Shown: positions 451 to 12,868 of the stretch, piece after piece
Layout of the letters: every line of letters begins with the position of its first letter
Position numbering within the stretch: the first letter of the stretch is position 1
Source of the DNA: a virus
UHGV virus genome: UHGV-2002320
Direction: 5' to 3' (one strand)
Length of the DNA stretch: 13,111 nt
Program-made: the position numbers and the translations under genes
The notes under the pieces: model-generated
The model's input: only the letters and a program-made list of their open reading frames with translations
Databases searched by the model: none
Told to the model about the DNA's origin: nothing

Positions 451-2895
451 TTAAATTTCAATAACATTCTCTATTTCTGTGTCAATTTTTAATAACTGAC
501 TAATTTCATTGTGAACTTCTAGATTATTTTCTTTAGTTTCAATAGAGATAATCAAACTAAATCTTGCAATACTAGATTGCCTATTTTCTTTTTTTAGCTC
601 CTTCCACCATCCACTCACAGGATAAATGGCTATGAACTTTTTGTCAGCTAATTCTAATGCTGTTCCGCTCCAAATGTCGCTATGAATAGACCCTCTATTC
701 CTTAGGGTTGGTCCTAATAACCATTTATTAGCATCACTTTCTCCAGCATCAAACTCTTGGTTTTCTTCTTTAAACTTTTTATTTATTCTTGAAACAAATT
801 CTCCGGACTCTTCACCAGGGCTATTAAAATCAAATCTTAAACCGAAAGATCCATATTTATATTTATTATCCCAACCTCTTTCGCCTGGATTAGGCTCTAC
901 AAAATAAGATAACGTTACTCTTAACTTTACGTCCTCTCCACCAATTTTTTCTAATTCAGAGGAAGGCCATGGTAATGAATAAAGAATCATCTTGTTTAAC
1001 TTGCCTTCAACTGTGTAGGGCTGTATTGAATCTTCGACTATTAAATTAACAGATTGATCACCGCTTGAAATTGCTTTTGCTAAATTAGGGAAACCATAAC
1101 CTGACATTCTTAAAAGAAATTCCACATTCTGCTTTGTACGTAAAGGCTCATGTCTTTCGAGGATTTTCTTTGGCCAGGATGCGCTATGGACAACTAAAGC
1201 TCGGATTGTTTCAGGCCAATAATTTGGATACTGACTCCATAGTTTAGAGATGAAAAAAGCAGCCATACCTGTTGCAGCGCTTGTCTCAGAGAAACTACTA
1301 AAATACTCCCCTTTAGTGAATTCATGAGAAAGTGTTAATAAGCTAAGCTCTTCTAAATTAGCAGAAAAGTTGAGATGTGAATCATAACCAAAATTCCCTC
1401 CTTCAAAAACGACATCCGGCTTAAAAGGTGAATTATTTTTCCATATCCTAGATGTTGTAGATGATGGCCCTAAATCAGTTAGTTCAGCAATAACATCATA
1501 ACCATCTGTTATAACGTTATCTTCACTTGCCCAATATCCAACTGTTAGAGCATTATATGAATTAGCGGGATCTTCAATTGAATAAGTTATATTTGCATCC
1601 GGATAATCAGAAATTAGATTAGGAGGAAGATTGCCTGCAGATAATATAAATAATCTTTTCTCTGGATCGTCAGGACTACCTGAAGCAAGTCTGTCGATTG
1701 CTGCGGACCAACTAGTAGGCATCCCTCTTAAAGTATTTGGAGAGGACACTGCCATCGTAAATATCCGACGTTCTGAGGGTTGTTTGGCTTCTATATTGTA
1801 TATAGCATCAGTGGTAATAGCGCCATAAAGTTGAGGTTCATTTACACCAGTATCAGGTAAAATTTTAGCTGACTCAATAACTCCACTTATCGGCAATTCT
1901 TTAGACTGTATCGCGAATTTAAGATCACCAAATAATGCCAATCCAGCAATACCGGTTCCATGACCTTTTAAATCGCTATTCGCCCACTGAGGTTCGGCTA
2001 CAACTAGTGCATTTTCATTTACAAATGTATTAAGCAGTGGGTGCTGAGAGTTAATACCTGTATCAAGTATGCAAATAGGAATTAATGTATTTAGTTTTCT
2101 ATAAGTTATACCATTAACCCACTGAAAAGCTTCAGCTGGTTTCAAATCAAGAAAATCTACACTCACAGCTTTCGAGGGCCGAACTTCCGAAATAATCTCC
2201 GTCATCTGTTGAAGCAGCATTAACTGATGCATAGAAGCACAGACTATTTTTACAACTCTATCTTTAAAACTAAGTGTGCCTTGTTTAACTGTTATACCCA
2301 ACTGACCACATAGTTGTTCAAATTTATTCAGAAGTATTTCTAGTTCTATATCACTTGAGTCCAGCCATAACTCAAGATCATGTATTTTATAAATATCTTC
2401 AGGGAACTCATCCTGACTAAACCATAAAGCCCGAAAATTGCCATATTCTATATTAGATATGGATTCTATAAATGGTTGATTCTTCGGGTTACCTTTTTTT
2501 GTATTCTCAGTAGCATATTCTTGCAGAATCTTTTCAAGTTTAGAAAAACCGTCTACGGGCACAGAAACGTTTGCCATTGTCATACCATCTATAGTATTAA
2601 CAGACATTATTTTCATCCCATTTGCATCTAAACTTTTTAAAACCATTCGTTCTTTAATTTCTGGATTTTCTTGAAAAGTCATTACTACCTTTTGAGGTTC
2701 ATTCCCTTTTCCTAATAACATCTCCACTGTTTTTTTTCTTTCATTATATATATTTATAGCAGATTCTAAACTATGCCTCACTTTTGCAAAATGGGCATTT
2801 CTGTTAACAGGACTTTTACCCTTTTTCGGGCCCCCTGTAACTGGTTTATAGTCAATAAGCTTCTGTGGTAAGTCGATTTTAATGTGAGCCTTCAT
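451..2895 (-). CDS. Subtilisin-like (S8 family) serine protease, 814 aa, with long N- and C-terminal extensions
   Basis: Catalytic motifs in canonical Asp-His-Asn-Ser order: ICILDTGI (Asp278, codon 2062..2064), GHGTGIAG (His312, 1960..1962), ILSAGN (oxyanion Asn422), SETSAATGMAAF (Ser539, codon 1279..1281). About 270 aa precede the Asp motif and about 270 aa follow the Ser motif. Start lies 18 bp after the ATPase stop with an AGGGA ribosome-binding site. Markedly AT-rich compared with the element core. Confidence 0.85.
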   Translation of the reverse strand: MKAHIKIDLPQKLIDYKPVTGGPKKGKSPVNRNAHFAKVRHSLESAINIYNERKKTVEMLLGKGNEPQKVVMTFQENPEIKERMVLKSLDANGMKIMSVNTIDGMTMANVSVPVDGFSKLEKILQEYATENTKKGNPKNQPFIESISNIEYGNFRALWFSQDEFPEDIYKIHDLELWLDSSDIELEILLNKFEQLCGQLGITVKQGTLSFKDRVVKIVCASMHQLMLLQQMTEIISEVRPSKAVSVDFLDLKPAEAFQWVNGITYRKLNTLIPICILDTGINSQHPLLNTFVNENALVVAEPQWANSDLKGHGTGIAGLALFGDLKFAIQSKELPISGVIESAKILPDTGVNEPQLYGAITTDAIYNIEAKQPSERRIFTMAVSSPNTLRGMPTSWSAAIDRLASGSPDDPEKRLFILSAGNLPPNLISDYPDANITYSIEDPANSYNALTVGYWASEDNVITDGYDVIAELTDLGPSSTTSRIWKNNSPFKPDVVFEGGNFGYDSHLNFSANLEELSLLTLSHEFTKGEYFSSFSETSAATGMAAFFISKLWSQYPNYWPETIRALVVHSASWPKKILERHEPLRTKQNVEFLLRMSGYGFPNLAKAISSGDQSVNLIVEDSIQPYTVEGKLNKMILYSLPWPSSELEKIGGEDVKLRVTLSYFVEPNPGERGWDNKYKYGSFGLRFDFNSPGEESGEFVSRINKKFKEENQEFDAGESDANKWLLGPTLRNRGSIHSDIWSGTALELADKKFIAIYPVSGWWKELKKENRQSSIARFSLIISIETKENNLEVHNEISQLLKIDTEIENVIEI

Positions 2896-2913
2896 AATCC
2901 AGTCCCTATGTAA

Positions 2914-3897
2914 TTATTTATATGCTTTTCTCTCTTCTAAAACCTTTTGAAGGTCTATTTGATCTATTTTCTTTAAATTATTGATAATAGCAAATTTTAT
3001 CGCATCATCACAACTTTTTGAAACCTCTGAATAACTTAGCCCCTCAGCGCTACTCAACAAACTCCCCCACTCTTTTACGTTTAATTCAAAAGAATGATAT
3101 TTTGACTTAATTAATTCAATTAAGTTATCTTTTTCAGGCAAAGAATATTCGATCACATCATCAAACCTACGATATAAAGCACTATCCAGGATTTCTTTAT
3201 GATTCGTCGCACTAATAATCAAACTATCAGAATGATGCTCATCTAATAATTGTAAAAAAGTATTTAAAACACGGCGAATCTCACCTACATCATTATGCAT
3301 GCTTCTTTTTGAACCTATTGTATCGAACTCGTCGAACAAATAGACCCCTCTATTCATATTGATATATTCAAAAATACTTCGTAGTTTAGACGATGTTTCT
3401 CCCATAAATTTCGTTATAAGAGAATCCATTCTTACAGTAAAAAGAGGGAAATGTAATTCATGAGCAACAACGCTTGCCGTTAAAGTTTTACCAGTGCCTG
3501 GTGGACCATATAGTAGTAAATGTCTTCTAGGGACAAGACCATACTGTCTAATTTTAGATGCATTTTTATTCTCTTCTAAAAAACGCAATATCTTACTCCT
3601 GACGTCATTTGAAAGAATGACATCTGAAATTTTATTAGTCGGATGAGAAACAGTAAAAAGATCATTAGAGGAATGATTTATTACAGCAGTACTCGACGAA
3701 AGTACTCGAGGGTAATTGTTCCCTTCGTTAGCTTGTAACTTAGCCTTTTCTACAAGCAATCTCAACTCATCGGCGAATTTTCCATGACCTATCTTTGCTT
3801 CATGAGCAGCAATCTGTAGTACTACAGTCAAAAACTTGCGATCATCGCGTGCGATAAAATTTTTTACTAACGCTTTTAGTTGGTTTGCACTAGCCAT
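2914..3897 (-). CDS. AAA+ ATPase of the classic AAA clade, 327 aa
   Basis: Walker A GPPGTGKT (3484..3507), Walker B VYLFDEFD, sensor-1 ISATN, arginine-finger region SALYRRF. About 120 aa N-domain precedes the ATPase core. AGGA ribosome-binding site 8 nt upstream of the ATG. First gene of a two-gene operon with the protease. Confidence 0.9.
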   Translation of the reverse strand: MASANQLKALVKNFIARDDRKFLTVVLQIAAHEAKIGHGKFADELRLLVEKAKLQANEGNNYPRVLSSSTAVINHSSNDLFTVSHPTNKISDVILSNDVRSKILRFLEENKNASKIRQYGLVPRRHLLLYGPPGTGKTLTASVVAHELHFPLFTVRMDSLITKFMGETSSKLRSIFEYINMNRGVYLFDEFDTIGSKRSMHNDVGEIRRVLNTFLQLLDEHHSDSLIISATNHKEILDSALYRRFDDVIEYSLPEKDNLIELIKSKYHSFELNVKEWGSLLSSAEGLSYSEVSKSCDDAIKFAIINNLKKIDQIDLQKVLEERKAYK

Positions 3898-8885: not shown

Positions 8886-9265
8886 ACTTCCCCCTGATAC
8901 AACGTCACACCGGTACTGCAGAAGTCATCAAAGGCCGCCGGAAGCGTGCGGTACATCTCCGCCATCACTTCACAGCCGCGCGCGGTCAGTACCGGCGGCG
9001 CGGTCAGCAGTGACGGCTCCAGCATGTCAGTCAGCAGTGCCAGCGCGGCAGCGGCGCCCTGTGCTTCGCCGTACTCGTTAATCAGTACGCACTCGATATG
9101 CAGCGCAATGGCCATTTCAATACGCTCCACCGTCAGGCTGTGCGGACCATACTGATCACTGCCAGTTTCGTTCAGCATTTTCTGCCGCCATGCTGAAGCA
9201 ATAGCCCGCCGGTAAAGCGCGGTGGTCATTTCTGCCGGGAAAATGGAAACCTGCGGCTGGTTCAT
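8882..9265 (-). CDS. Hypothetical protein, 127 aa, in the replication operon upstream of the primase
   Basis: ORF with ATGA overlaps at both ends (9262..9265 and 8882..8885), indicating operon membership. No motif recognised. Confidence 0.6.
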   Translation of the reverse strand: MNQPQVSIFPAEMTTALYRRAIASAWRQKMLNETGSDQYGPHSLTVERIEMAIALHIECVLINEYGEAQGAAAALALLTDMLEPSLLTAPPVLTARGCEVMAEMYRTLPAAFDDFCSTGVTLYQGEV

Positions 9266-9546
9266 CTGGCACCTCCTTCAATCAGTGCGCAGCTGTGTGC
9301 AATATCCGTCAAATCTGCCAGCAGGTACTCCATCAGCGCGGCGACACCATGCGCACAGCCAGTGTCCAGTGCTCCGGCCTGAGACGGGTATTCAGAAAAG
9401 AGAAGCTGGAGCATGTCGCAGGCATTTCTTGCGCGGGTCAGCTTTCCGAAACTGTCCTCTGACAACCCATAGGCAAAAACACCGGTATTGTGTTTTTCAG
9501 GCAAAGTGTGGCCCTGAGCACCGTTGTGCCCGTTTGAAATATTCAT
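9262..9546 (-). CDS. Hypothetical protein, 94 aa
   Basis: ORF with a GGAG ribosome-binding site upstream and a 4-bp overlap with the next gene. No motif recognised. It occupies the position where P4 carries small genes such as epsilon, but no homology is claimed. Confidence 0.55.
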   Translation of the reverse strand: MNISNGHNGAQGHTLPEKHNTGVFAYGLSEDSFGKLTRARNACDMLQLLFSEYPSQAGALDTGCAHGVAALMEYLLADLTDIAHSCALIEGGAR

Positions 9547-9577
9547 CGTGGATTACTCCGTTTTCAGCGGTATTGTG

Positions 9578-9937
9578 TCAGAGAAACTTTGAATAGTGAC
9601 CGTCATCAGGCTCAGCAGAACGCCATATGCTACGCTCCCGCCAGCGGATAAATAGCACAGACGGATGCAGTGTCAGCGGGCCGGAACCACTACCGCCTGC
9701 AGGAGCTGGTGCAGGCTTAAAGAGCGGTACATCAAACAGGCGCGTATATCGCTGTTCAAACCATGCCAGAGGGCAGGAAGAAAGCTGGTTGTCGCTGTCA
9801 TGACGTATCAGCACTTCACAGCTGAATTCAGGATTAACCAGCGCCACAGAGGGCGAGGCTTCTATTAATCGGATAATCGTGACCGTCCAGCCACGTTCAT
9901 GCTGCCAGCGTTCGCCGGGATGCGGATAATTACGCAT
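9578..9937 (-). CDS. Hypothetical protein, 119 aa (start moved to the internal ATG; the ORF track gives 9578..9967)
   Basis: GGAGG lies 5 nt upstream of the ATG at 9935..9937 (MRNYPHPG...). This start overlaps the stop of a small upstream ORF by 8 nt. The longer track start at 9967 has no comparable ribosome-binding site. Confidence 0.5.
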   Translation of the reverse strand: MRNYPHPGERWQHERGWTVTIIRLIEASPSVALVNPEFSCEVLIRHDSDNQLSSCPLAWFEQRYTRLFDVPLFKPAPAPAGGSGSGPLTLHPSVLFIRWRERSIWRSAEPDDGHYSKFL

Positions 9938-10106
9938 GTTCACCTCCGCAGGGAATGCGCCCGGCAAAGCTCAGTACATAGTCCGGGGCAAGTCTGCGCC
10001 GCGCTGACCGCTCGTTATCTGCGGTGATCCTTAACATCACAGGACGGGCATTGCGTTGACTGCGGTTGATCGCCGCAAATAACCAGGTACACTTCTGTTT
10101 AGCCAT
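9930..10106 (-). CDS. Small hypothetical protein, 58 aa, below the ORF-track length cutoff; first gene of the replication operon
   Basis: ATG at 10104..10106 preceded by AAGAGG with an 8-nt spacer; translation MAKQKCTWLFAAINRSQRNARPVMLRITADNERSARRRLAPDYVLSFAGRIPCGGEHA; TAA at 9930..9932 overlaps the next start. Found by manual translation only. Confidence 0.3.
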   Translation of the reverse strand: MAKQKCTWLFAAINRSQRNARPVMLRITADNERSARRRLAPDYVLSFAGRIPCGGEHA

Positions 10107-10198
10107 CTTCGTTACCTCTTATAACGGTTGGTTAAATGCCCGATTTGTGTTCCCGCACAATCGGGCATTGCTTTTACAAGCGAACTATACTTACAATG

Positions 10199-10238
10199 GT
10201 AATTACCATGTAGTCATCATATTCTAGGGTAATTACCA
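10199..10238. promoter_or_regulatory. Two copies of the self-complementary 10-mer GGTAATTACC spaced 30 bp apart; candidate operators in a divergent promoter region
   Basis: GGTAATTACC at 10199..10208 and 10229..10238, each embedded in the longer direct repeat GGTAATTACCATGT. The second copy overlaps the start codon of the ribbon-helix-helix-like gene. Confidence 0.4.
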
Positions 10239-10411
10239 TGTCAACACCACAAGAGAAACGTTCTCCACCATTCCAAATGCGTCTTACCGACGATTTTAGG
10301 TTGCAACTCGAAAACGAAATGCGCAAAGATGGAGATAGCGCGTTGGCAACTTGGATTAAAAGAATTTTACGCAAAGAACTCCAATCACGCGGGATTGACC
10401 CTAAAGGCTAA
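10238..10411 (+). CDS. Arc/MetJ-type ribbon-helix-helix DNA-binding protein, 57 aa, below the ORF-track cutoff; candidate repressor
   Basis: Manual translation MSTPQEKRSPPFQMRLTDDFRLQLENEMRKDGDSALATWIKRILRKELQSRGIDPKG. The segment FQMRL..DFRLQLENEMRKDGDSALATWIKRIL aligns by eye with the Arc repressor strand-helix-helix (FNLRWPREVLDLVRKVAEENGRSVNSEIYQRV). The only + strand gene in the element. Confidence 0.5.
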   Translation: MSTPQEKRSPPFQMRLTDDFRLQLENEMRKDGDSALATWIKRILRKELQSRGIDPKG

Positions 10412-10443
10412 TCAGTTAAATATTACTAACTATCAATTAAGGC

Positions 10444-10734
10444 TTAGGGAGTAGATGATAATCTATTCCCTTTATTAATTGCTCTTGCCTTATTTCTCAT
10501 CCCCTCAAACTGTTGACCTGAGTTTTCTTCAAACCCATCTCGCCACTTATAATAATCAGCAGCGCGCCATCGTGACATCCGACCTATTTTTATAGGTTTT
10601 GGAAAGCGATTCAGAGAAATCAATCGATAAATCCATTTATCACTTAATAAACAATCGGAAGTAATAAACTTCATATCGATCAGAGAATCCATTGAAGGTC
10701 GTTGCAAAGTAGTATTATCATGTTTAGATAACAT
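10444..10734 (-). CDS. alpA: AlpA-family phage transcriptional regulator (helix-turn-helix), up to 96 aa; true start may be an internal Met
   Basis: The segment SDKWIYRLISLNRFPKPIKIGRMSRWRAADYYKW matches the AlpA signature (..IYRLI..G.FPKP.K.G.R...W...). AT-rich. Confidence 0.7.
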   Translation of the reverse strand: MLSKHDNTTLQRPSMDSLIDMKFITSDCLLSDKWIYRLISLNRFPKPIKIGRMSRWRAADYYKWRDGFEENSGQQFEGMRNKARAINKGNRLSSTP

Positions 10735-10859
10735 TCATCATTCTCCGTTTATCTAAGTCTATTGGCTTCAACACGGAAAATTAAAACATAGGTTATAAAT
10801 GAGAAAAATGTGACTAATGAAAAAAATTCAAAATCATTAGCCACAACAATTGTTAATAT

Positions 10860-11684
10860 TTAGTTAAACTTAATGTTTTTCATGCAACTACGTAGCAAAC
10901 TAACAACAGTATCATAGCTCAAAGGCGGTTCTCCGGTCTTAGGCCAGAACTCACTGGCATGTTGAAAAAGATAATCAGCTATCGCTGCTGGACTCTCTCT
11001 TCTTAGCCTCATATCACGATGATAGAGCGAAATAATAGCCATGAGTATTTCAGCTCGAGGAACAGCATGTTTTTGTTTTTGCGCCTCAGATTGTGATTTA
11101 TATTTATTGGCGTTTTTTATCCGCTTTTGTTCGCATAAGACTATATCAATGAATTTTTGAATCTGTACCTTTGTAATCCACAAAACCTCAAAAAGATAAT
11201 AATTTTCTTTTTCATCATAATTTACATAAAGAATTACCTTACAATTTATATTAGGCGTACCCGCCAGTAGAAAATGAATAGGCCAGGAATCCGGTTGCCC
11301 CTCATGCTTAACTAACAGATCTTTATATTCATAATCAACAGCCCATAAACCGGATATGAAGCATCGAATAAAACCATTTTTATCAATTAAATTATCTTCA
11401 TCAGGGATTCTTATAGAACTTAAGTCTGACAACATAATATTGCCATTTCTATCTCGTGGTAAATATTTCAGATTAGATAAGAACTCATCCATTTGACCAT
11501 CAATCTTCAAACCACATGAAACATCATACTCATCATCATGGAATTCCATGCATAGCTCTACATCTCGTTCTCTGGCAAACCAGAGTATATCCTTTTCACT
11601 ACAACCAATTTTTTCTGAAGCTTCATCCAACTGGTAGTAATCTCTGAGCAGAGAATCAGTATTATTAATTTTTAAAATATTCAT
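10860..11684 (-). CDS. Hypothetical protein, 274 aa, AT-rich orphan cargo gene directly downstream of the integrase
   Basis: Long ORF whose ATG overlaps the integrase stop (ATGA at 11681..11684). Composition is strongly AT-biased compared with the element core. No catalytic or binding motif recognised. Confidence 0.7.
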   Translation of the reverse strand: MNILKINNTDSLLRDYYQLDEASEKIGCSEKDILWFARERDVELCMEFHDDEYDVSCGLKIDGQMDEFLSNLKYLPRDRNGNIMLSDLSSIRIPDEDNLIDKNGFIRCFISGLWAVDYEYKDLLVKHEGQPDSWPIHFLLAGTPNINCKVILYVNYDEKENYYLFEVLWITKVQIQKFIDIVLCEQKRIKNANKYKSQSEAQKQKHAVPRAEILMAIISLYHRDMRLRRESPAAIADYLFQHASEFWPKTGEPPLSYDTVVSLLRSCMKNIKFN

Positions 11685-12868
11685 TTATGAGTACCAATTT
11701 GCTCAGATAAATAATTAGCATACCATTGCATCATTTCTCTTCTCCCTTCGAGATATTGGGCATGGTTATAAATTCCACGAATAGAGTTTTTGTCCGAATG
11801 AGCAAGCTGGGTTTCAATCCAAGCGCTGTTAAATCCTTTCTCATGTAGGATTGTACTCATCGTATGCCTGAAACCATGCCCCGTAACACGCCCTGCATAT
11901 CCAATACGTTTAAACACCTGATTAATGCTTGCTTCACTCATAAATTTGCTGGGATCGTTGCGTCCAGGGAACATCAGCGGGTAGTTCCCAGTTAGTTCTT
12001 TCAAACTTTTGAGATGGGATAATGCTTGTTTTGACAACGGGACAATATGGCTCCTACGCATTTTCATACGTTCTTTTGGGATCTCCCACACCGCATTATC
12101 AAAATCCACCTCTCGCCACTCACCTGCTCGTAGTTCTCCAGTTCGTAGACCTGTCAGGATAAGTAAATGCGCCCCCAACAATACAATTGGACTTCCTGAA
12201 TAAGAATTAAGGGCATTAAAGAACTCCGGTAGTTCGTTGGCTTTGAGGAATGGATAGTGGACTGCTTCATGTCCTTGCATCGCACTGGCAAGATCCGGTG
12301 CCGGATTGTAGATTGCCCTACCCGTTACGATGGCATAGCGAAAAACTTCACCGCATCGCTGACGGACTTTCTTCGCTTTCTCCATAGCGCCTCGAGCTTC
12401 TATCAACCTCAGAACTTCAAGCAGTTCAAGGGGCTGAATATCAGCTATAGGTCTGTGCCCAATATGCGGGAAAATGTCTTTCTCGAATGCCTCAATGATG
12501 TCGGAAGCATAGCCCTCAGACCATTTGGGTGATTTCATTTTGTGCCACTCTAACGCCACTTCTCTGAATGGGTTAAGTGTCTCACTCGCTGCATTTAAAG
12601 CCTGCTTTTTGGCTTTTTTGACTTCGCCGGGATCTTCACCTGCTGCGAGTAGTTTCTTCGCGTCTTCTCGTTTTTGTCTGGCATCAGCAAGTGTGACTGT
12701 TGGATAAACACCAAAGGACAATCGTTTCTCTTTACCAGCAAAACGGTATTTCATACGCCAGTAACGCGAGCCATTAGGTTCGACCTGAAGGTATAGGCCA
12801 CCTCCATCAAACAGCTTGTAGCTCTTCTCTTTTCCTTTCGCAGCTTCAACCTTGCGGGCATTCAGCAT
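11681..12868 (-). CDS. int: P4-type tyrosine integrase (about 395 aa from the likely ATG; the ORF track extends to a TTG at 12940)
   Basis: N-terminal region (M)LNARKVEAAKGKEKSYKLFDGGGLYLQVEPNGSRYWRMKYRFAGKEKRLSFGVYP is the hallmark of P4-family integrases. C-terminal catalytic region contains HGFRHT and the LAHSD...YNH segment. Lies next to the tRNA 3' end in the same orientation. Confidence 0.9.
   Translation of the reverse strand: MLNARKVEAAKGKEKSYKLFDGGGLYLQVEPNGSRYWRMKYRFAGKEKRLSFGVYPTVTLADARQKREDAKKLLAAGEDPGEVKKAKKQALNAASETLNPFREVALEWHKMKSPKWSEGYASDIIEAFEKDIFPHIGHRPIADIQPLELLEVLRLIEARGAMEKAKKVRQRCGEVFRYAIVTGRAIYNPAPDLASAMQGHEAVHYPFLKANELPEFFNALNSYSGSPIVLLGAHLLILTGLRTGELRAGEWREVDFDNAVWEIPKERMKMRRSHIVPLSKQALSHLKSLKELTGNYPLMFPGRNDPSKFMSEASINQVFKRIGYAGRVTGHGFRHTMSTILHEKGFNSAWIETQLAHSDKNSIRGIYNHAQYLEGRREMMQWYANYLSEQIGTHK

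What the first reader, a model, noticed from the sequence alone, without database searches (positions are those of the whole stretch)
10110..10411. Divergent switch region with an unannotated Arc-like repressor gene and paired palindromic operators
A 57-aa ORF on the + strand, missed by the ORF track, has a clear strand-helix-helix pattern resembling Arc. It is preceded by and overlaps two copies of the perfect palindrome GGTAATTACC spaced 30 bp apart, and it diverges from the replication operon. P4 itself controls immunity with an RNA, so a protein repressor module here would be a different regulatory solution. The competing 66-aa minus-strand ORF over the same DNA has no motif support.
Basis: partly seen in the sequence, partly recalled or inferred. 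Interest (0 to 1): 0.5.

Follow-up and report, generated by a model that had tools for sequence, protein, structure and literature searches.

The report
Arc-like repressor switch in P4-like satellite
A small, conserved Arc-type DNA-binding protein, its two operator sites on a strong early promoter and a previously unnoticed antisense RNA form a portable on/off switch in this P4-like phage satellite, which lacks P4's RNA immunity elements at this position, and the switch is a candidate for the 'missing' master repressor of Gram-negative satellites.

Summary
ORF 10238-10411 (+, 57 aa) and two exact GGTAATTACC palindromes 30 bp apart (10198-10207, 10228-10237) lie between an AlpA-like gene and the Icd-like/primase operon of a P4-like satellite at tRNA-Thr.

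The ORF is a real gene. It has intact homologues in many genera, and dN/dS is 0.11 against 0.38 for the overlapping minus-strand ORF. Profile comparisons place it in the Arc-like ribbon-helix-helix group (hhalign probability 96%; PHROG 'Arc-like repressor' in 26 of 29 relatives).

The palindromes sit on a near-consensus leftward promoter. One fills the -35/-10 spacer and the other covers the start site. This layout recurs in 42 distinct loci. The palindrome sequence changes together in both sites, and with the protein's N-terminal arm.

Identical replication operons occur elsewhere with different repressor/operator cassettes, as heteroimmune modules do. P4's C4 and IsrK RNAs are absent here.

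It is antisense to the Icd-like ribosome-binding site and shows strong covariation.

Best reading: a maintenance repressor switch, P22 immI-like and P2-like in design. DNA binding and repression are untested. I rate it a new variant of a known kind.

The parts
10238..10411 (+). Gene for a 57-aa Arc-like ribbon-helix-helix protein, the putative repressor. Its ATGTCAA start doubles as the -35 of the leftward promoter on the other strand.
   Evidence: ORF. 85 homologues and 68 genome loci. dN/dS 0.11 against 0.38 for the antisense frame. hhalign to an Arc profile gives probability 96.3%. PHROG 228 is hit by 26 of 29 relatives. The AF2 model has helices at 18-31 and 33-50 behind an extended N-terminus.
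10228..10237 (.). Operator O2: the palindrome GGTAATTACC in the spacer of the leftward promoter, directly next to its -35. It lies between the Shine-Dalgarno-like AGGG and the ATG of the repressor gene.
   Evidence: Its position next to the -35 is conserved in 42 unique loci. It co-varies with O1 and with the protein's N-terminal arm.
10196..10209 (.). Operator O1: the perfect 14-bp palindrome ATGGTAATTACCAT. It covers the inferred start sites of both the leftward and the rightward promoter.
   Evidence: It starts 6-8 nt downstream of the leftward -10 in the loci. Its identity to its own O2 is 8.46 of 10, against 6.79 +/- 0.21 when O2 sites are shuffled among loci, with 0 of 2000 shuffles as high.
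10216..10244 (-). Leftward early promoter P_L: -35 TTGACA (10244-10239), 17-nt spacer, -10 TATGAT (10221-10216), inferred start near 10209. It drives the Icd-like gene, three small genes and the primase.
   Evidence: 11 of 12 consensus matches. TTGACA is perfect in 40 of 42 unique loci. The start site is inferred, not measured.
10168..10197 (+). Candidate rightward promoter P_R for the repressor gene: -35 TTGCTT (10168-10173), 18-nt spacer, -10 TACAAT (10192-10197), inferred start near 10204. It faces P_L, so the two transcripts would overlap by about 6 nt.
   Evidence: Read from the sequences printed. In the GGTAATTACC-class loci I examined by eye (10 were checked), TTG(C/T)TT sits 16-18 bp from TA(C/A/T)AAT next to O1, while the spacer sequence diverges. 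It scores 8 of 12, below the scanner's threshold. This part is inferred.
10101..10176 (+). Candidate cis-antisense small RNA of about 76 nt. Hairpin 1 (10101-10133) has the anti-Shine-Dalgarno CCUCUU in its loop (10115-10120) and CAU (10104-10106) opposite the Icd-like AUG. Hairpin 2 (10135-10169) plus the GCUUUU tail forms an intrinsic terminator.
   Evidence: MFE -28.5 kcal/mol, z -5.5. In 38 distinct sequences, 14 of 22 pairs show compensatory changes. 0 of 500 shuffles reach the observed values. 94.4% of cells pair on the plus strand against 82.2% on the minus strand, with 111 G.U cells against 10 A.C cells. The covariance model finds held-out copies in L071, L039, L046 and L074 at 53-60 bits. 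Rfam gives only a sub-threshold symR-like hit.
10066..10093 (+). Candidate promoter of the antisense RNA, embedded in codons 5-14 of the Icd-like gene: -35 TTGATC (10066-10071), 16-nt spacer, -10 TACACT (10088-10093), which lies 7 nt before AGCCAT at 10101.
   Evidence: A TA..(A/C)T hexamer sits exactly 7 nt upstream of AG(C/T)CAT in the 38 aligned loci (T 38 of 38, A 37 of 38, last T 37 of 38). This holds although the downstream protein differs among the loci checked.
9930..10106 (-). First gene of the regulated operon: a 58-aa Icd-like protein, homologous to the C-terminal part of the old P4 'cI/kil' ORF. Its Shine-Dalgarno AAGAGG is at 10120-10115 on the minus strand.
   Evidence: RefSeq names it 'host cell division inhibitor Icd-like protein'. 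PHROG 1743 at 2.5e-16. The similarity to the P4 ORF 8168-8812 translation was seen by eye.
10446..10481 (+). Terminator-like hairpin and T-rich tail after the repressor gene, inside the 3' end of the convergent AlpA-like gene. It makes the repressor gene monocistronic.
   Evidence: Terminator scan.

Best explanation
The 57-aa protein is a divergent Arc-type ribbon-helix-helix repressor. I infer that it binds as dimers to O2 (10228-10237, in the spacer of P_L) and O1 (10196-10209, over the start sites). Binding would shut the near-consensus leftward promoter that drives the Icd-like, small-gene and primase operon, keeping the integrated P4-like satellite quiescent. Its own promoter P_R faces P_L, and the two are too close for RNA polymerase to occupy both. 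Silencing P_L should therefore favour repressor synthesis, while occupancy of O1 should limit it, giving autoregulation. A second layer is a plus-strand RNA of about 76 nt. It starts inside the first codons of the Icd-like gene and ends at a terminator just before P_R. It is fully complementary to the Icd-like Shine-Dalgarno and AUG and would block translation of leaky P_L transcripts. Shown here: the gene is under purifying selection; it is Arc-like by profile comparison; the operator and promoter geometry is conserved; the two operators co-vary with each other and with the protein arm; the cassette is exchanged as a unit; the RNA structure co-varies on the plus strand. Inferred: DNA binding, repression, start sites, RNA expression, and how the switch is released. 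Release could come from leftward read-through from the AlpA side, as with P4 P_LL, or from a helper-encoded anti-repressor.
For: Gene reality. There are 85 homologues and 68 genome loci across Enterobacterales, Pasteurellaceae, Gilliamella and Oceanisphaera. dN/dS is 0.11 in the plus frame against 0.38 in the minus frame, and lower in 114 of 115 pairs.

Fold. The family profile reaches a Pfam-confirmed Arc-domain protein, P0114, at E 5.4e-5 in a library of 1.84 billion proteins. hhalign against an Arc mini-profile gives probability 96.3% and E 1.9e-9 over 45 columns, aligning SPQFQMRL with MPQFNLRW and keeping the G-x-S turn. PHROG 228 'Arc-like repressor' is hit by 26 of 29 relatives, best E 3.2e-7. 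The weak PDB hits include AmrZ, a CopG-family regulator, HP0222 (which I know to be ribbon-helix-helix) and an Arc-family protein.

Operators. P_L scores 11 of 12 with O2 in its spacer. TTGACA is perfect in 40 of 42 loci, with O2 next to it and O1 6-8 nt after the -10. Operator classes track the N-terminal arm. KRSP(P/Q)(F/Y)QMRL goes with GGT..ACC, KTDQYQ(I/L)RL with TGTAATTACA, KRSPQFPMRL with GGTATATACC, and GNPPFQFRL with GTGTAATTACAC.

Cassette exchange. Loci L060 and L061 have the Icd-like-to-primase operon 98-100% identical to the window. Their repressor is only 54% identical and their operators differ. E. coli AR_0014 has the identical Icd-like protein with a YlcI/YnfO-type small gene and GTGAATCGCAC repeats instead.

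Operator class does not follow AlpA similarity. L039 has AlpA 62% and integrase 60% identical to the window's but TGTAATTACA operators. Most GGTAATTACC loci have no detectable AlpA match.

No P4-type immunity RNAs are found here, and the same search finds them in P4.
Confidence: 0.7

Rival explanations
1. The protein is a real Arc-like DNA binder at these sites, but it acts transiently after induction, like P22 Arc or a Cro-type protein, to damp early transcription. It would not maintain the integrated state. Quiescence would then depend on something else, for example the antisense RNA or lack of an activator such as AlpA.
For: Its closest sequence relative is Arc, not Mnt. [quoted passage not shown] The protein has no sensor or cleavage domain at only 57 aa.
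Against: The gene is transcribed away from the early operon, from its own face-to-face promoter. It is therefore made when P_L is off, the position of a maintenance repressor. P22 Arc, in contrast, is the first gene of the operon it represses (my knowledge). The cassette is exchanged as a specificity unit on identical replication operons, which is the pattern of immunity modules.
Confidence: 0.15
2. The palindromes are bound by another factor, such as the neighbouring AlpA/Vis-like protein, a helper-phage Cox- or Ogr-type protein, or a host protein. The small protein would have an unrelated role, and the co-variation would reflect linkage only.
For: In P4, Vis regulates the promoters of this region (my knowledge). 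The AlpA-like gene lies next to the cassette and was also replaced in L060, L061 and L075.
Against: Operator class follows the small protein's N-terminal arm, not AlpA. L039 has an AlpA 62% identical to the window's but TGTAATTACA operators. Most GGTAATTACC loci show no AlpA similarity at E 1e-4. The O157:H7 element has the same operators with a different, 62-aa HTH gene. Short palindromes that change symmetrically on both halves fit a symmetric dimer such as a ribbon-helix-helix protein.
Confidence: 0.08
3. The small protein is a ribbon-helix-helix antitoxin-type partner of the toxic Icd-like protein, that is, a toxin-antitoxin-like addiction pair rather than a life-cycle switch.
For: JGI names several homologues 'HicB family'. 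Distant relatives give weak HicB, MazE and ParD-like Pfam hits. RefSeq annotates Icd-like proteins as cell-division inhibitors.
Against: The two genes are divergent, not co-transcribed, and the small gene is monocistronic with its own terminator. In Xenorhabdus the cassette controls a primase directly, with no Icd-like gene. In other genera the first gene is an unrelated protein of 113-119 aa. The 57 aa leave no toxin-binding tail beyond about 7 residues.
Confidence: 0.04
4. The expressed product is the 66-aa minus-strand ORF (10174-10374), and the plus-strand ORF is its shadow.
For: The minus frame shares third codon positions with the plus frame and stays open in 21 of 26 orthologous sequences.
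Against: dN/dS is 0.38 against 0.11, and higher in 114 of 115 pairs. Codon position 2 is more variable than position 1 in the minus frame, and 5 of 26 sequences carry stops. It has a TTG start, no significant family hit, and it straddles P_L, so its start lies upstream of that promoter's transcript.
Confidence: 0.01

Closest known systems
Phage P22 immI region (Mnt and Arc ribbon-helix-helix repressors, Pant/Pmnt, sar antisense RNA); from my knowledge of the Susskind/Sauer literature
   Same: A small ribbon-helix-helix repressor related in sequence to Arc. An operator inside the core of a strong promoter. A repressor gene, like mnt, transcribed in the opposite direction from an overlapping promoter. 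A short antisense RNA complementary to the ribosome-binding site of the regulated gene, like sar.
   Different: The regulated operon here is Icd-like plus replication genes, not an antirepressor. There is one repressor rather than the Mnt and Arc pair. There are two separate palindromes 30 bp apart rather than a single operator. The protein lacks Mnt's tetramerisation tail. The element is a satellite, not a phage.
Phage P2 / 186 developmental switch (face-to-face Pe/Pc or pR/pL, with the C or CI repressor binding repeats that flank the early promoter); from my knowledge
   Same: Convergent, closely spaced lysogenic and early promoters. Two repressor sites bracket the -10 of the early promoter. 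Switch cassettes define immunity types.
   Different: To my knowledge, P2 C and 186 CI are not ribbon-helix-helix proteins. No Cox- or Apl-type counter-repressor is identified here. The promoters here are much closer, with inferred start sites about 6 nt apart.
Satellite P4 immunity (CI RNA = Rfam C4; seqA = Rfam isrK; premature termination of P_LE transcripts)
   Same: Same genomic position, between the vis/alpA gene and the kil/Icd-like gene at the head of the primase operon. Same job, keeping the left operon off in the integrated state.
   Different: P4 uses a processed sense-strand RNA. C4 (74.9 bits) and isrK (60.8 bits) are found in P4, and none is found in the window. P4 has no match to the antisense-RNA model.
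SymR/SymE-type cis-antisense control (Rfam RF01809)
   Same: An RNA of about 77 nt with a 5' hairpin and a terminator hairpin. It is encoded opposite the 5' end of its target and covers the Shine-Dalgarno and AUG. Rfam gives a full-length symR alignment at 31.6 bits.
   Different: The score is far below the gathering score of 61. The target is an Icd-like, primase or other early gene, not SymE. The resemblance may be architecture only.
SaPI/PICI master repressor Stl (Gram-positive satellites)
   Same: A divergently transcribed repressor next to the int/xis side that controls the replication operon of a satellite (PMC6092414).
   Different: Stl is a much larger repressor and is inactivated by helper proteins (size from my knowledge; inactivation from PMC6092414). 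Here the protein is a 57-aa ribbon-helix-helix candidate with no known inducer. [quoted passage not shown]

Membership tests
Arc-like ribbon-helix-helix DNA-binding proteins (Pfam PF03869 / MetJ-Arc superfamily) | Significant match to the family profile | tested here: inconclusive
   The window protein has no Pfam Arc hit at E<=1 and reaches PHROG 228 'Arc-like repressor' at E 3e-3. At family level, 26 of 29 relatives hit PHROG 228 (best 3.2e-7) and 9 of 29 hit Pfam Arc weakly (best 2.5e-4). The profile reaches the Arc-domain protein P0114 at E 5.4e-5. hhalign against the Arc mini-profile gives probability 96.3%. No curated cut-off is passed by this protein itself.
Arc-like ribbon-helix-helix DNA-binding proteins (Pfam PF03869 / MetJ-Arc superfamily) | Strand-helix-turn-helix order, with a G-x-S/T/N turn before helix B and alternating polar strand residues (Arc Q9, N11, R13) | tested here: met
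   AF2 gives an extended N-terminus and helices at 18-31 and 33-50. G32-D33-S34 lies between the helices. hhalign puts P/Q11-F12-Q13-M14-R15 opposite Arc Q9-F10-N11-L12-R13. R15 is invariant in the family.
Arc-like ribbon-helix-helix DNA-binding proteins (Pfam PF03869 / MetJ-Arc superfamily) | Intertwined homodimer whose two strands form the DNA-reading sheet | not testable with these tools
Arc-like ribbon-helix-helix DNA-binding proteins (Pfam PF03869 / MetJ-Arc superfamily) | Binds repeated or palindromic operator subsites | not testable with these tools
   Only indirect support is available: paired palindromes at fixed promoter positions in 42 loci, which co-vary with the N-terminal arm.
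P22 immI-type switch | Repressor operator inside the core promoter of the regulated operon, with the repressor gene on an opposing overlapping promoter | tested here: met
   O2 lies in the P_L spacer and O1 at the start site. The candidate P_R faces P_L. Promoter activity was not measured.
P22 immI-type switch | Regulated gene is an antirepressor (ant) | tested here: not met
   The first gene is Icd-like, followed by DUF5375 and primase genes. No Ant, Bro or KilA domain was found in the operon.
P4-type RNA immunity | C4-family CI RNA and its isrK/seqA target upstream of the kil/Icd-like gene | tested here: not met
   There is no C4, isrK or c4-a1b1 hit in the window at gathering score, or at E<=10 in 9400-10900. 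The same search finds all three in P4.
P4-like satellite (SatelliteFinder core set: int, psu, delta, sid, alpA, epsilon, alpha; PMC8628076) | Presence and order of the core genes | tested here: met
   Integrase, AlpA-like, Toprim/DUF927 primase, Sid-like (distant Psu family), Psu and Ogr/Delta are all present, in the P4-like order. No epsilon/Ash homologue was identified; the 94-aa and 129-aa ORFs remain unassigned.
Type II toxin-antitoxin ribbon-helix-helix antitoxin | Co-transcribed with, and adjacent to, its toxin gene | tested here: not met
   The gene is monocistronic, followed by a terminator and a convergent AlpA-like gene. The Icd-like gene is divergent, and it is absent from several of the loci checked that carry the cassette.
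Rfam symR (RF01809) | Score at or above the gathering score of 61 bits | tested here: not met
   31.6 bits, E 1.1e-3.

The most novel reading that the evidence does not exclude
The region is one allele of a portable three-part switch cassette. It combines a small divergent DNA-binding repressor with paired operators on a consensus early promoter, face-to-face promoters, and a conserved cis-antisense RNA. The antisense RNA's promoter is built into the first codons of whatever early gene follows. The cassette is shared by P4-like satellites, the prototype island EcCICFT073, the capsid-encoding island of O157:H7 and Pasteurella 'phage' Pmp8. It comes in several heteroimmune specificity types. It would be the global repressor system whose existence in Gram-negative satellites has been called unclear, and its antisense RNA would be a new RNA family.
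Probability: 0.45. Interest if true: 0.72.

Novelty: new variant of a known kind. Interest (0 to 1): 0.6.

Why it matters
P4 is the textbook satellite, and its RNA-based immunity is usually taken as the model for the family. This element and many relatives have no C4 or IsrK RNA at that position. They carry instead a protein repressor and operator cassette plus a cis-antisense RNA. About 8% of complete E. coli genomes (443 of 5426) match at least 80% of the 331-bp module. For Gram-negative phage-inducible islands, the published view is that a global repressor is 'unclear' and that AlpA is an activator (PMC6092414). The prototype island EcCICFT073 has the same antisense-RNA element and a small divergent gene at the same place, under later-style RefSeq locus tags. 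If these cassettes are the maintenance repressors, three things become directly testable: how such satellites stay silent, how helpers release them, and why satellites with identical replication genes differ in 'immunity'. The co-varying protein arms and operator variants also offer a natural series for studying ribbon-helix-helix specificity.

Tried and rejected
- Pfam and NCBIfam on the window protein gave no usable hit. NCBIfam gave only weak YlcI/YnfO matches, for 11 relatives.
- The PDB sequence search with the single protein and with the close-homologue profile returned designed helical repeats, which I treat as spurious. The broader profile gave only sub-significant ribbon-helix-helix hits.
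- Rfam gave no family above threshold except the tRNA. A CRISPR-DR50 hit at E 8 was dismissed.
- Searching for more GGTAATTACC-like sites in the window found 9 with up to 2 mismatches, against 4.7 +/- 2.1 expected. Ten of 200 shuffles did as well, so there is no convincing third site.
- A phage-database DNA search found only Pasteurella phage Pmp8. P4 itself shows no DNA similarity here.
- Six literature searches, covering satellite, ribbon-helix-helix, Icd, antisense, the operator strings, PICI and EcCICFT073, found no description of this protein, these operators or this RNA. The library lacks most subscription-journal P4 papers, so absence is not proof.
- The minus-strand 66-aa ORF was considered and rejected.
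- The idea that hairpin 10135-10169 is a leader structure of the leftward mRNA was considered and set aside. G.U pairs and the T-tail fit only the plus strand.
- The link between the EcCICFT073 YlcI/YnfO protein and this family remains unproven (hhalign probability 5%; no Pfam hit).
Full report
**The observation.** The window holds a 57-aa ORF on the plus strand at 10238-10411 (ATG start, TAA stop). The decamer GGTAATTACC occurs exactly twice in 13.1 kb, at 10198-10207 and 10228-10237. The repeated unit is 14 nt, GGTAATTACCATGT. The first copy is a perfect 14-bp palindrome, ATGGTAATTACCAT, at 10196-10209. The second copy ends one base before the ATG. The competing minus-strand ORF (10174-10374, TTG start, 66 aa) also exists. 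The description is correct. Two exact copies of a 10-mer 30 bp apart are far beyond chance.

**Context.** The window is a P4-like satellite integrated at tRNA-Thr(CGT). It is 99.9% identical over 9000-11800 to E. coli chromosomes.
- On the minus strand lie the integrase, a 274-aa ORF, an AlpA/Vis-like gene (10444-10734), an Icd-like gene (9930-10106), three small genes, a Toprim/DUF927 primase, Sid-like, Psu and Delta, followed by cargo genes.
- The 57-aa gene is the only plus-strand gene in this stretch. It converges on the AlpA-like gene and diverges from the Icd-like/primase operon.
- RefSeq annotates it as a hypothetical protein.

**The ORF is a gene.**
- 85 homologues were found, and 68 genome loci in Escherichia/Shigella, Citrobacter, Pantoea, Erwinia, Yersinia, Xenorhabdus, Photorhabdus, Pectobacterium, Gilliamella, Pasteurellaceae and Oceanisphaera.
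- The length is almost always 56-58 aa.
- Among 26 distinct ungapped orthologues, dN/dS is 0.11 in the plus frame and 0.38 in the minus frame. The plus frame is lower in 114 of 115 pairs.
- The minus ORF shares third codon positions with the plus frame, which explains why it often stays open. It carries stops in 5 of 26 sequences and has the wrong position-1/position-2 variability order.
- The minus ORF also starts upstream of the promoter it straddles.

**Fold.** The single sequence is weak: no Pfam hit and PHROG 228 'Arc-like repressor' at E 3e-3. The family is narrow, with only 40 cluster representatives at E<=1e-3 among 1.84 billion. It nevertheless connects to Arc.
- The profile reaches P0114 (E 5.4e-5), a tandem protein that Pfam scores as Arc at 2.5e-24.
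- 26 of 29 relatives hit PHROG 228, best E 3.2e-7.
- hhalign of the family against P22 Arc plus the two P0114 repeats gives probability 96.3% and E 1.9e-9 over 45 columns. The alignment puts SP(P/Q)(F/Y)QMRL opposite Arc's MPQFNLRW and keeps the G-x-S turn.
- AF2 predicts an extended N-terminus and two helices at 18-31 and 33-50, with pLDDT 72.7. This fits a ribbon-helix-helix monomer.

**Promoters and operators.**
- The scanner finds one strong promoter on the minus strand: TTGACA (10244-10239), 17 nt, TATGAT (10221-10216), 11 of 12 matches.
- O2 fills its spacer and O1 covers the inferred start near 10209.
- The repressor's ATGTCAA start is the reverse complement of that -35.
- In 42 distinct loci, TTGACA is perfect in 40. 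O2 always abuts it, and O1 begins 6-8 nt after the -10.
- A rightward promoter for the repressor gene is suggested by TTG(C/T)TT, 16-18 bp, then TA(C/A/T)AAT next to O1. I found this in the GGTAATTACC-class loci I read by eye. In the window these are at 10168-10173 and 10192-10197.
- The two inferred start sites are about 6 nt apart and face each other.

**Co-variation.** The palindrome changes in both sites together, symmetrically on both halves, and with the residues just before and in the predicted strand.

| N-terminal arm and strand | Operator |
|---|---|
| KRSP(P/Q)(F/Y)QMRL | GGTAATTACC, centre variable |
| KTDQYQ(I/L)RL | TGTAATTACA |
| KRSPQFPMRL | GGTATATACC |
| GNPPFQFRL | GTGTAATTACAC |

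- A site-1 core matches its own site 2 at 8.46 of 10 positions. After shuffling site 2 among loci the value is 6.79 +/- 0.21, with 0 of 2000 shuffles as high. Relatedness inflates this figure.
- Operator class does not follow AlpA similarity.

**Cassette exchange.**
- Pantoea stewartii and Enterobacter soli loci carry an Icd-like-to-primase operon 98-100% identical to the window's. Their small protein is only 54% identical and their operators differ. By eye, the sequences diverge within the antisense-RNA region, around window 10120-10135.
- E. coli AR_0014 has the identical Icd-like protein next to a YlcI/YnfO-type small gene and three GTGAATCGCAC repeats.
- This is the pattern of heteroimmune modules.

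**RNA layer.** P4's immunity RNAs are absent from the window, although the same search finds C4, isrK and c4-a1b1 in P4.
- Plus strand 10101-10176 folds into two hairpins and a U-tail: -28.5 kcal/mol, z -5.5.
- In 38 distinct sequences, 14 of 22 pairs show compensatory changes. No shuffle of 500 reaches the observed values.
- 94.4% of cells pair on the plus strand against 82.2% on the minus strand, with 111 G.U cells against 10 A.C cells. The structure therefore belongs to the plus-strand RNA.
- Its loop carries CCUCUU, opposite the Icd-like Shine-Dalgarno, and positions 4-6 are opposite the AUG.
- A TA..(A/C)T hexamer lies exactly 7 nt upstream of the AG(C/T)CAT anchor in the 38 aligned loci.
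- This holds even though the downstream gene differs. It is an Icd-like protein, a protein of 113-119 aa, or a primase. At least one Icd-like gene and the Xenorhabdus primase share their first ~14 codons.
- A covariance model finds held-out copies in the O157:H7 island, in L039 and L046, and in EcCICFT073. It finds none in P4.

**Mechanism.** I infer the following, none of it measured. The protein binds O2 and O1 as a ribbon-helix-helix dimer, or a pair of dimers. It blocks RNA polymerase at P_L and limits its own promoter through O1. The antisense RNA blocks translation of the first early gene from escaped transcripts. Release is unknown. Candidates are leftward read-through from the AlpA side across the repressor gene, or a helper-encoded anti-repressor.

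**Comparison with known systems.**
- The design is closest to P22 immI (ribbon-helix-helix repressors on Pant plus the sar antisense RNA) and to the face-to-face P2/186 switches. These comparisons rest on my knowledge.
- The protein is Arc-like by profile comparison, though it is below curated thresholds on its own.
- It is not a P4-type RNA immunity system.
- It is not a toxin-antitoxin pair.

**Novelty.**
- Six literature searches found no description of the protein, the operators or the RNA.
- Fillol-Salom et al. 2018 state that a global repressor in Gram-negative islands is unclear and that AlpA activates (PMC6092414).
- The module matches 715 of 5426 complete E. coli genomes, and 443 of them cover at least 80% of it.
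- I rate it a new variant of a known kind, with moderate to high interest and no experimental support yet.

Noticed in passing
window 10066-10176 (+): A conserved cis-antisense small RNA candidate of about 76 nt lies opposite the Shine-Dalgarno and AUG of the Icd-like gene. Its -10 hexamer is embedded in the first codons of that gene. It has strong covariation on the plus strand and no Rfam family, only a symR-like hit at 31.6 bits.
   Followed up: yes
L074 12474-13053 (E. coli CFT073, NC_004431 1380473-1381052): The prototype Gram-negative island EcCICFT073 has the same antisense-RNA element (53.5 bits, 12767-12852). It also has a divergent 59-aa 'YlcI/YnfO family' gene facing its Icd-like gene, with the direct repeat AGGTGTGGCCCAC twice between them. 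Both small genes carry later-style RefSeq locus tags. Homology of the 59-aa protein to the 57-aa family is unproven (hhalign probability 5%).
   Followed up: partly
L075 2470-2900 (E. coli AR_0014): This is a P4-like element with the identical Icd-like protein (WP_001118612.1) and DUF5375 protein. It carries a YlcI/YnfO-type small gene and three GTGAATCGCAC repeats in place of the Arc-like gene and GGTAATTACC. That makes it a third 'immunity type' on the same replication operon.
   Followed up: partly
L060 / L061 3800-4230 (Pantoea stewartii, Enterobacter soli): The replication operon is 98-100% identical to the window's, but the repressor homologue is only 54% identical, with a GTG start and ATGTGTAATTACACAT operators. 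By eye, the sequences diverge inside the antisense-RNA region.
   Followed up: partly
L071 5975-6285 (E. coli O157:H7, island next to roxA): A capsid-encoding island carries the same GGTAATTACC cassette and a 57-aa homologue. RefSeq does not annotate this homologue. A pseudogene 'Icd-like' call on the opposite strand starts just after its ATG and covers almost all of it.
   Followed up: partly
L005, L040, L044 (first leftward gene); window 10064-10106: The first ~14 codons (MA.TQH.QT.PKFT) are shared between small Icd-like proteins and an 812-aa primase in Xenorhabdus. The 5' end of the first early gene seems to travel with the switch cassette, probably because it holds the antisense promoter.
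   Followed up: partly
window 9930-10106; L072 8168-8584 (P4): PHROG 1743 labels Icd-like proteins 'transcriptional repressor'. This probably descends from the obsolete P4 'cI gene product' ORF annotation, since the real P4 cI is an RNA. The label should not be read as evidence that the Icd-like protein is a repressor.
   Followed up: no
window 451-3897 (-): The cargo at the variable end consists of an 814-aa subtilase (Peptidase_S8) and a 327-aa AAA ATPase. E. coli H22, which is 99.9% identical over window 9000-11800, has DRT3 reverse transcriptases beyond delta instead, consistent with the known defence hotspot of P4-like satellites.
   Followed up: no
L035, L059, L065-L069: Truncated remnants of the small gene occur, for example only the C-terminal WIKRILRKEL...PKG part in several Photorhabdus genomes. 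Where checked (L035, L059), they lack the -35 and the palindromes. These look like decayed cassettes.
   Followed up: no
window 10208-10213 and the equivalent site in other loci: O1 is followed by ATG-TAG (or ATG-TAA) in many GGTAATTACC-class loci, a start-stop pair just inside the repressor's 5' leader. It may be only part of the extended operator.
   Followed up: no
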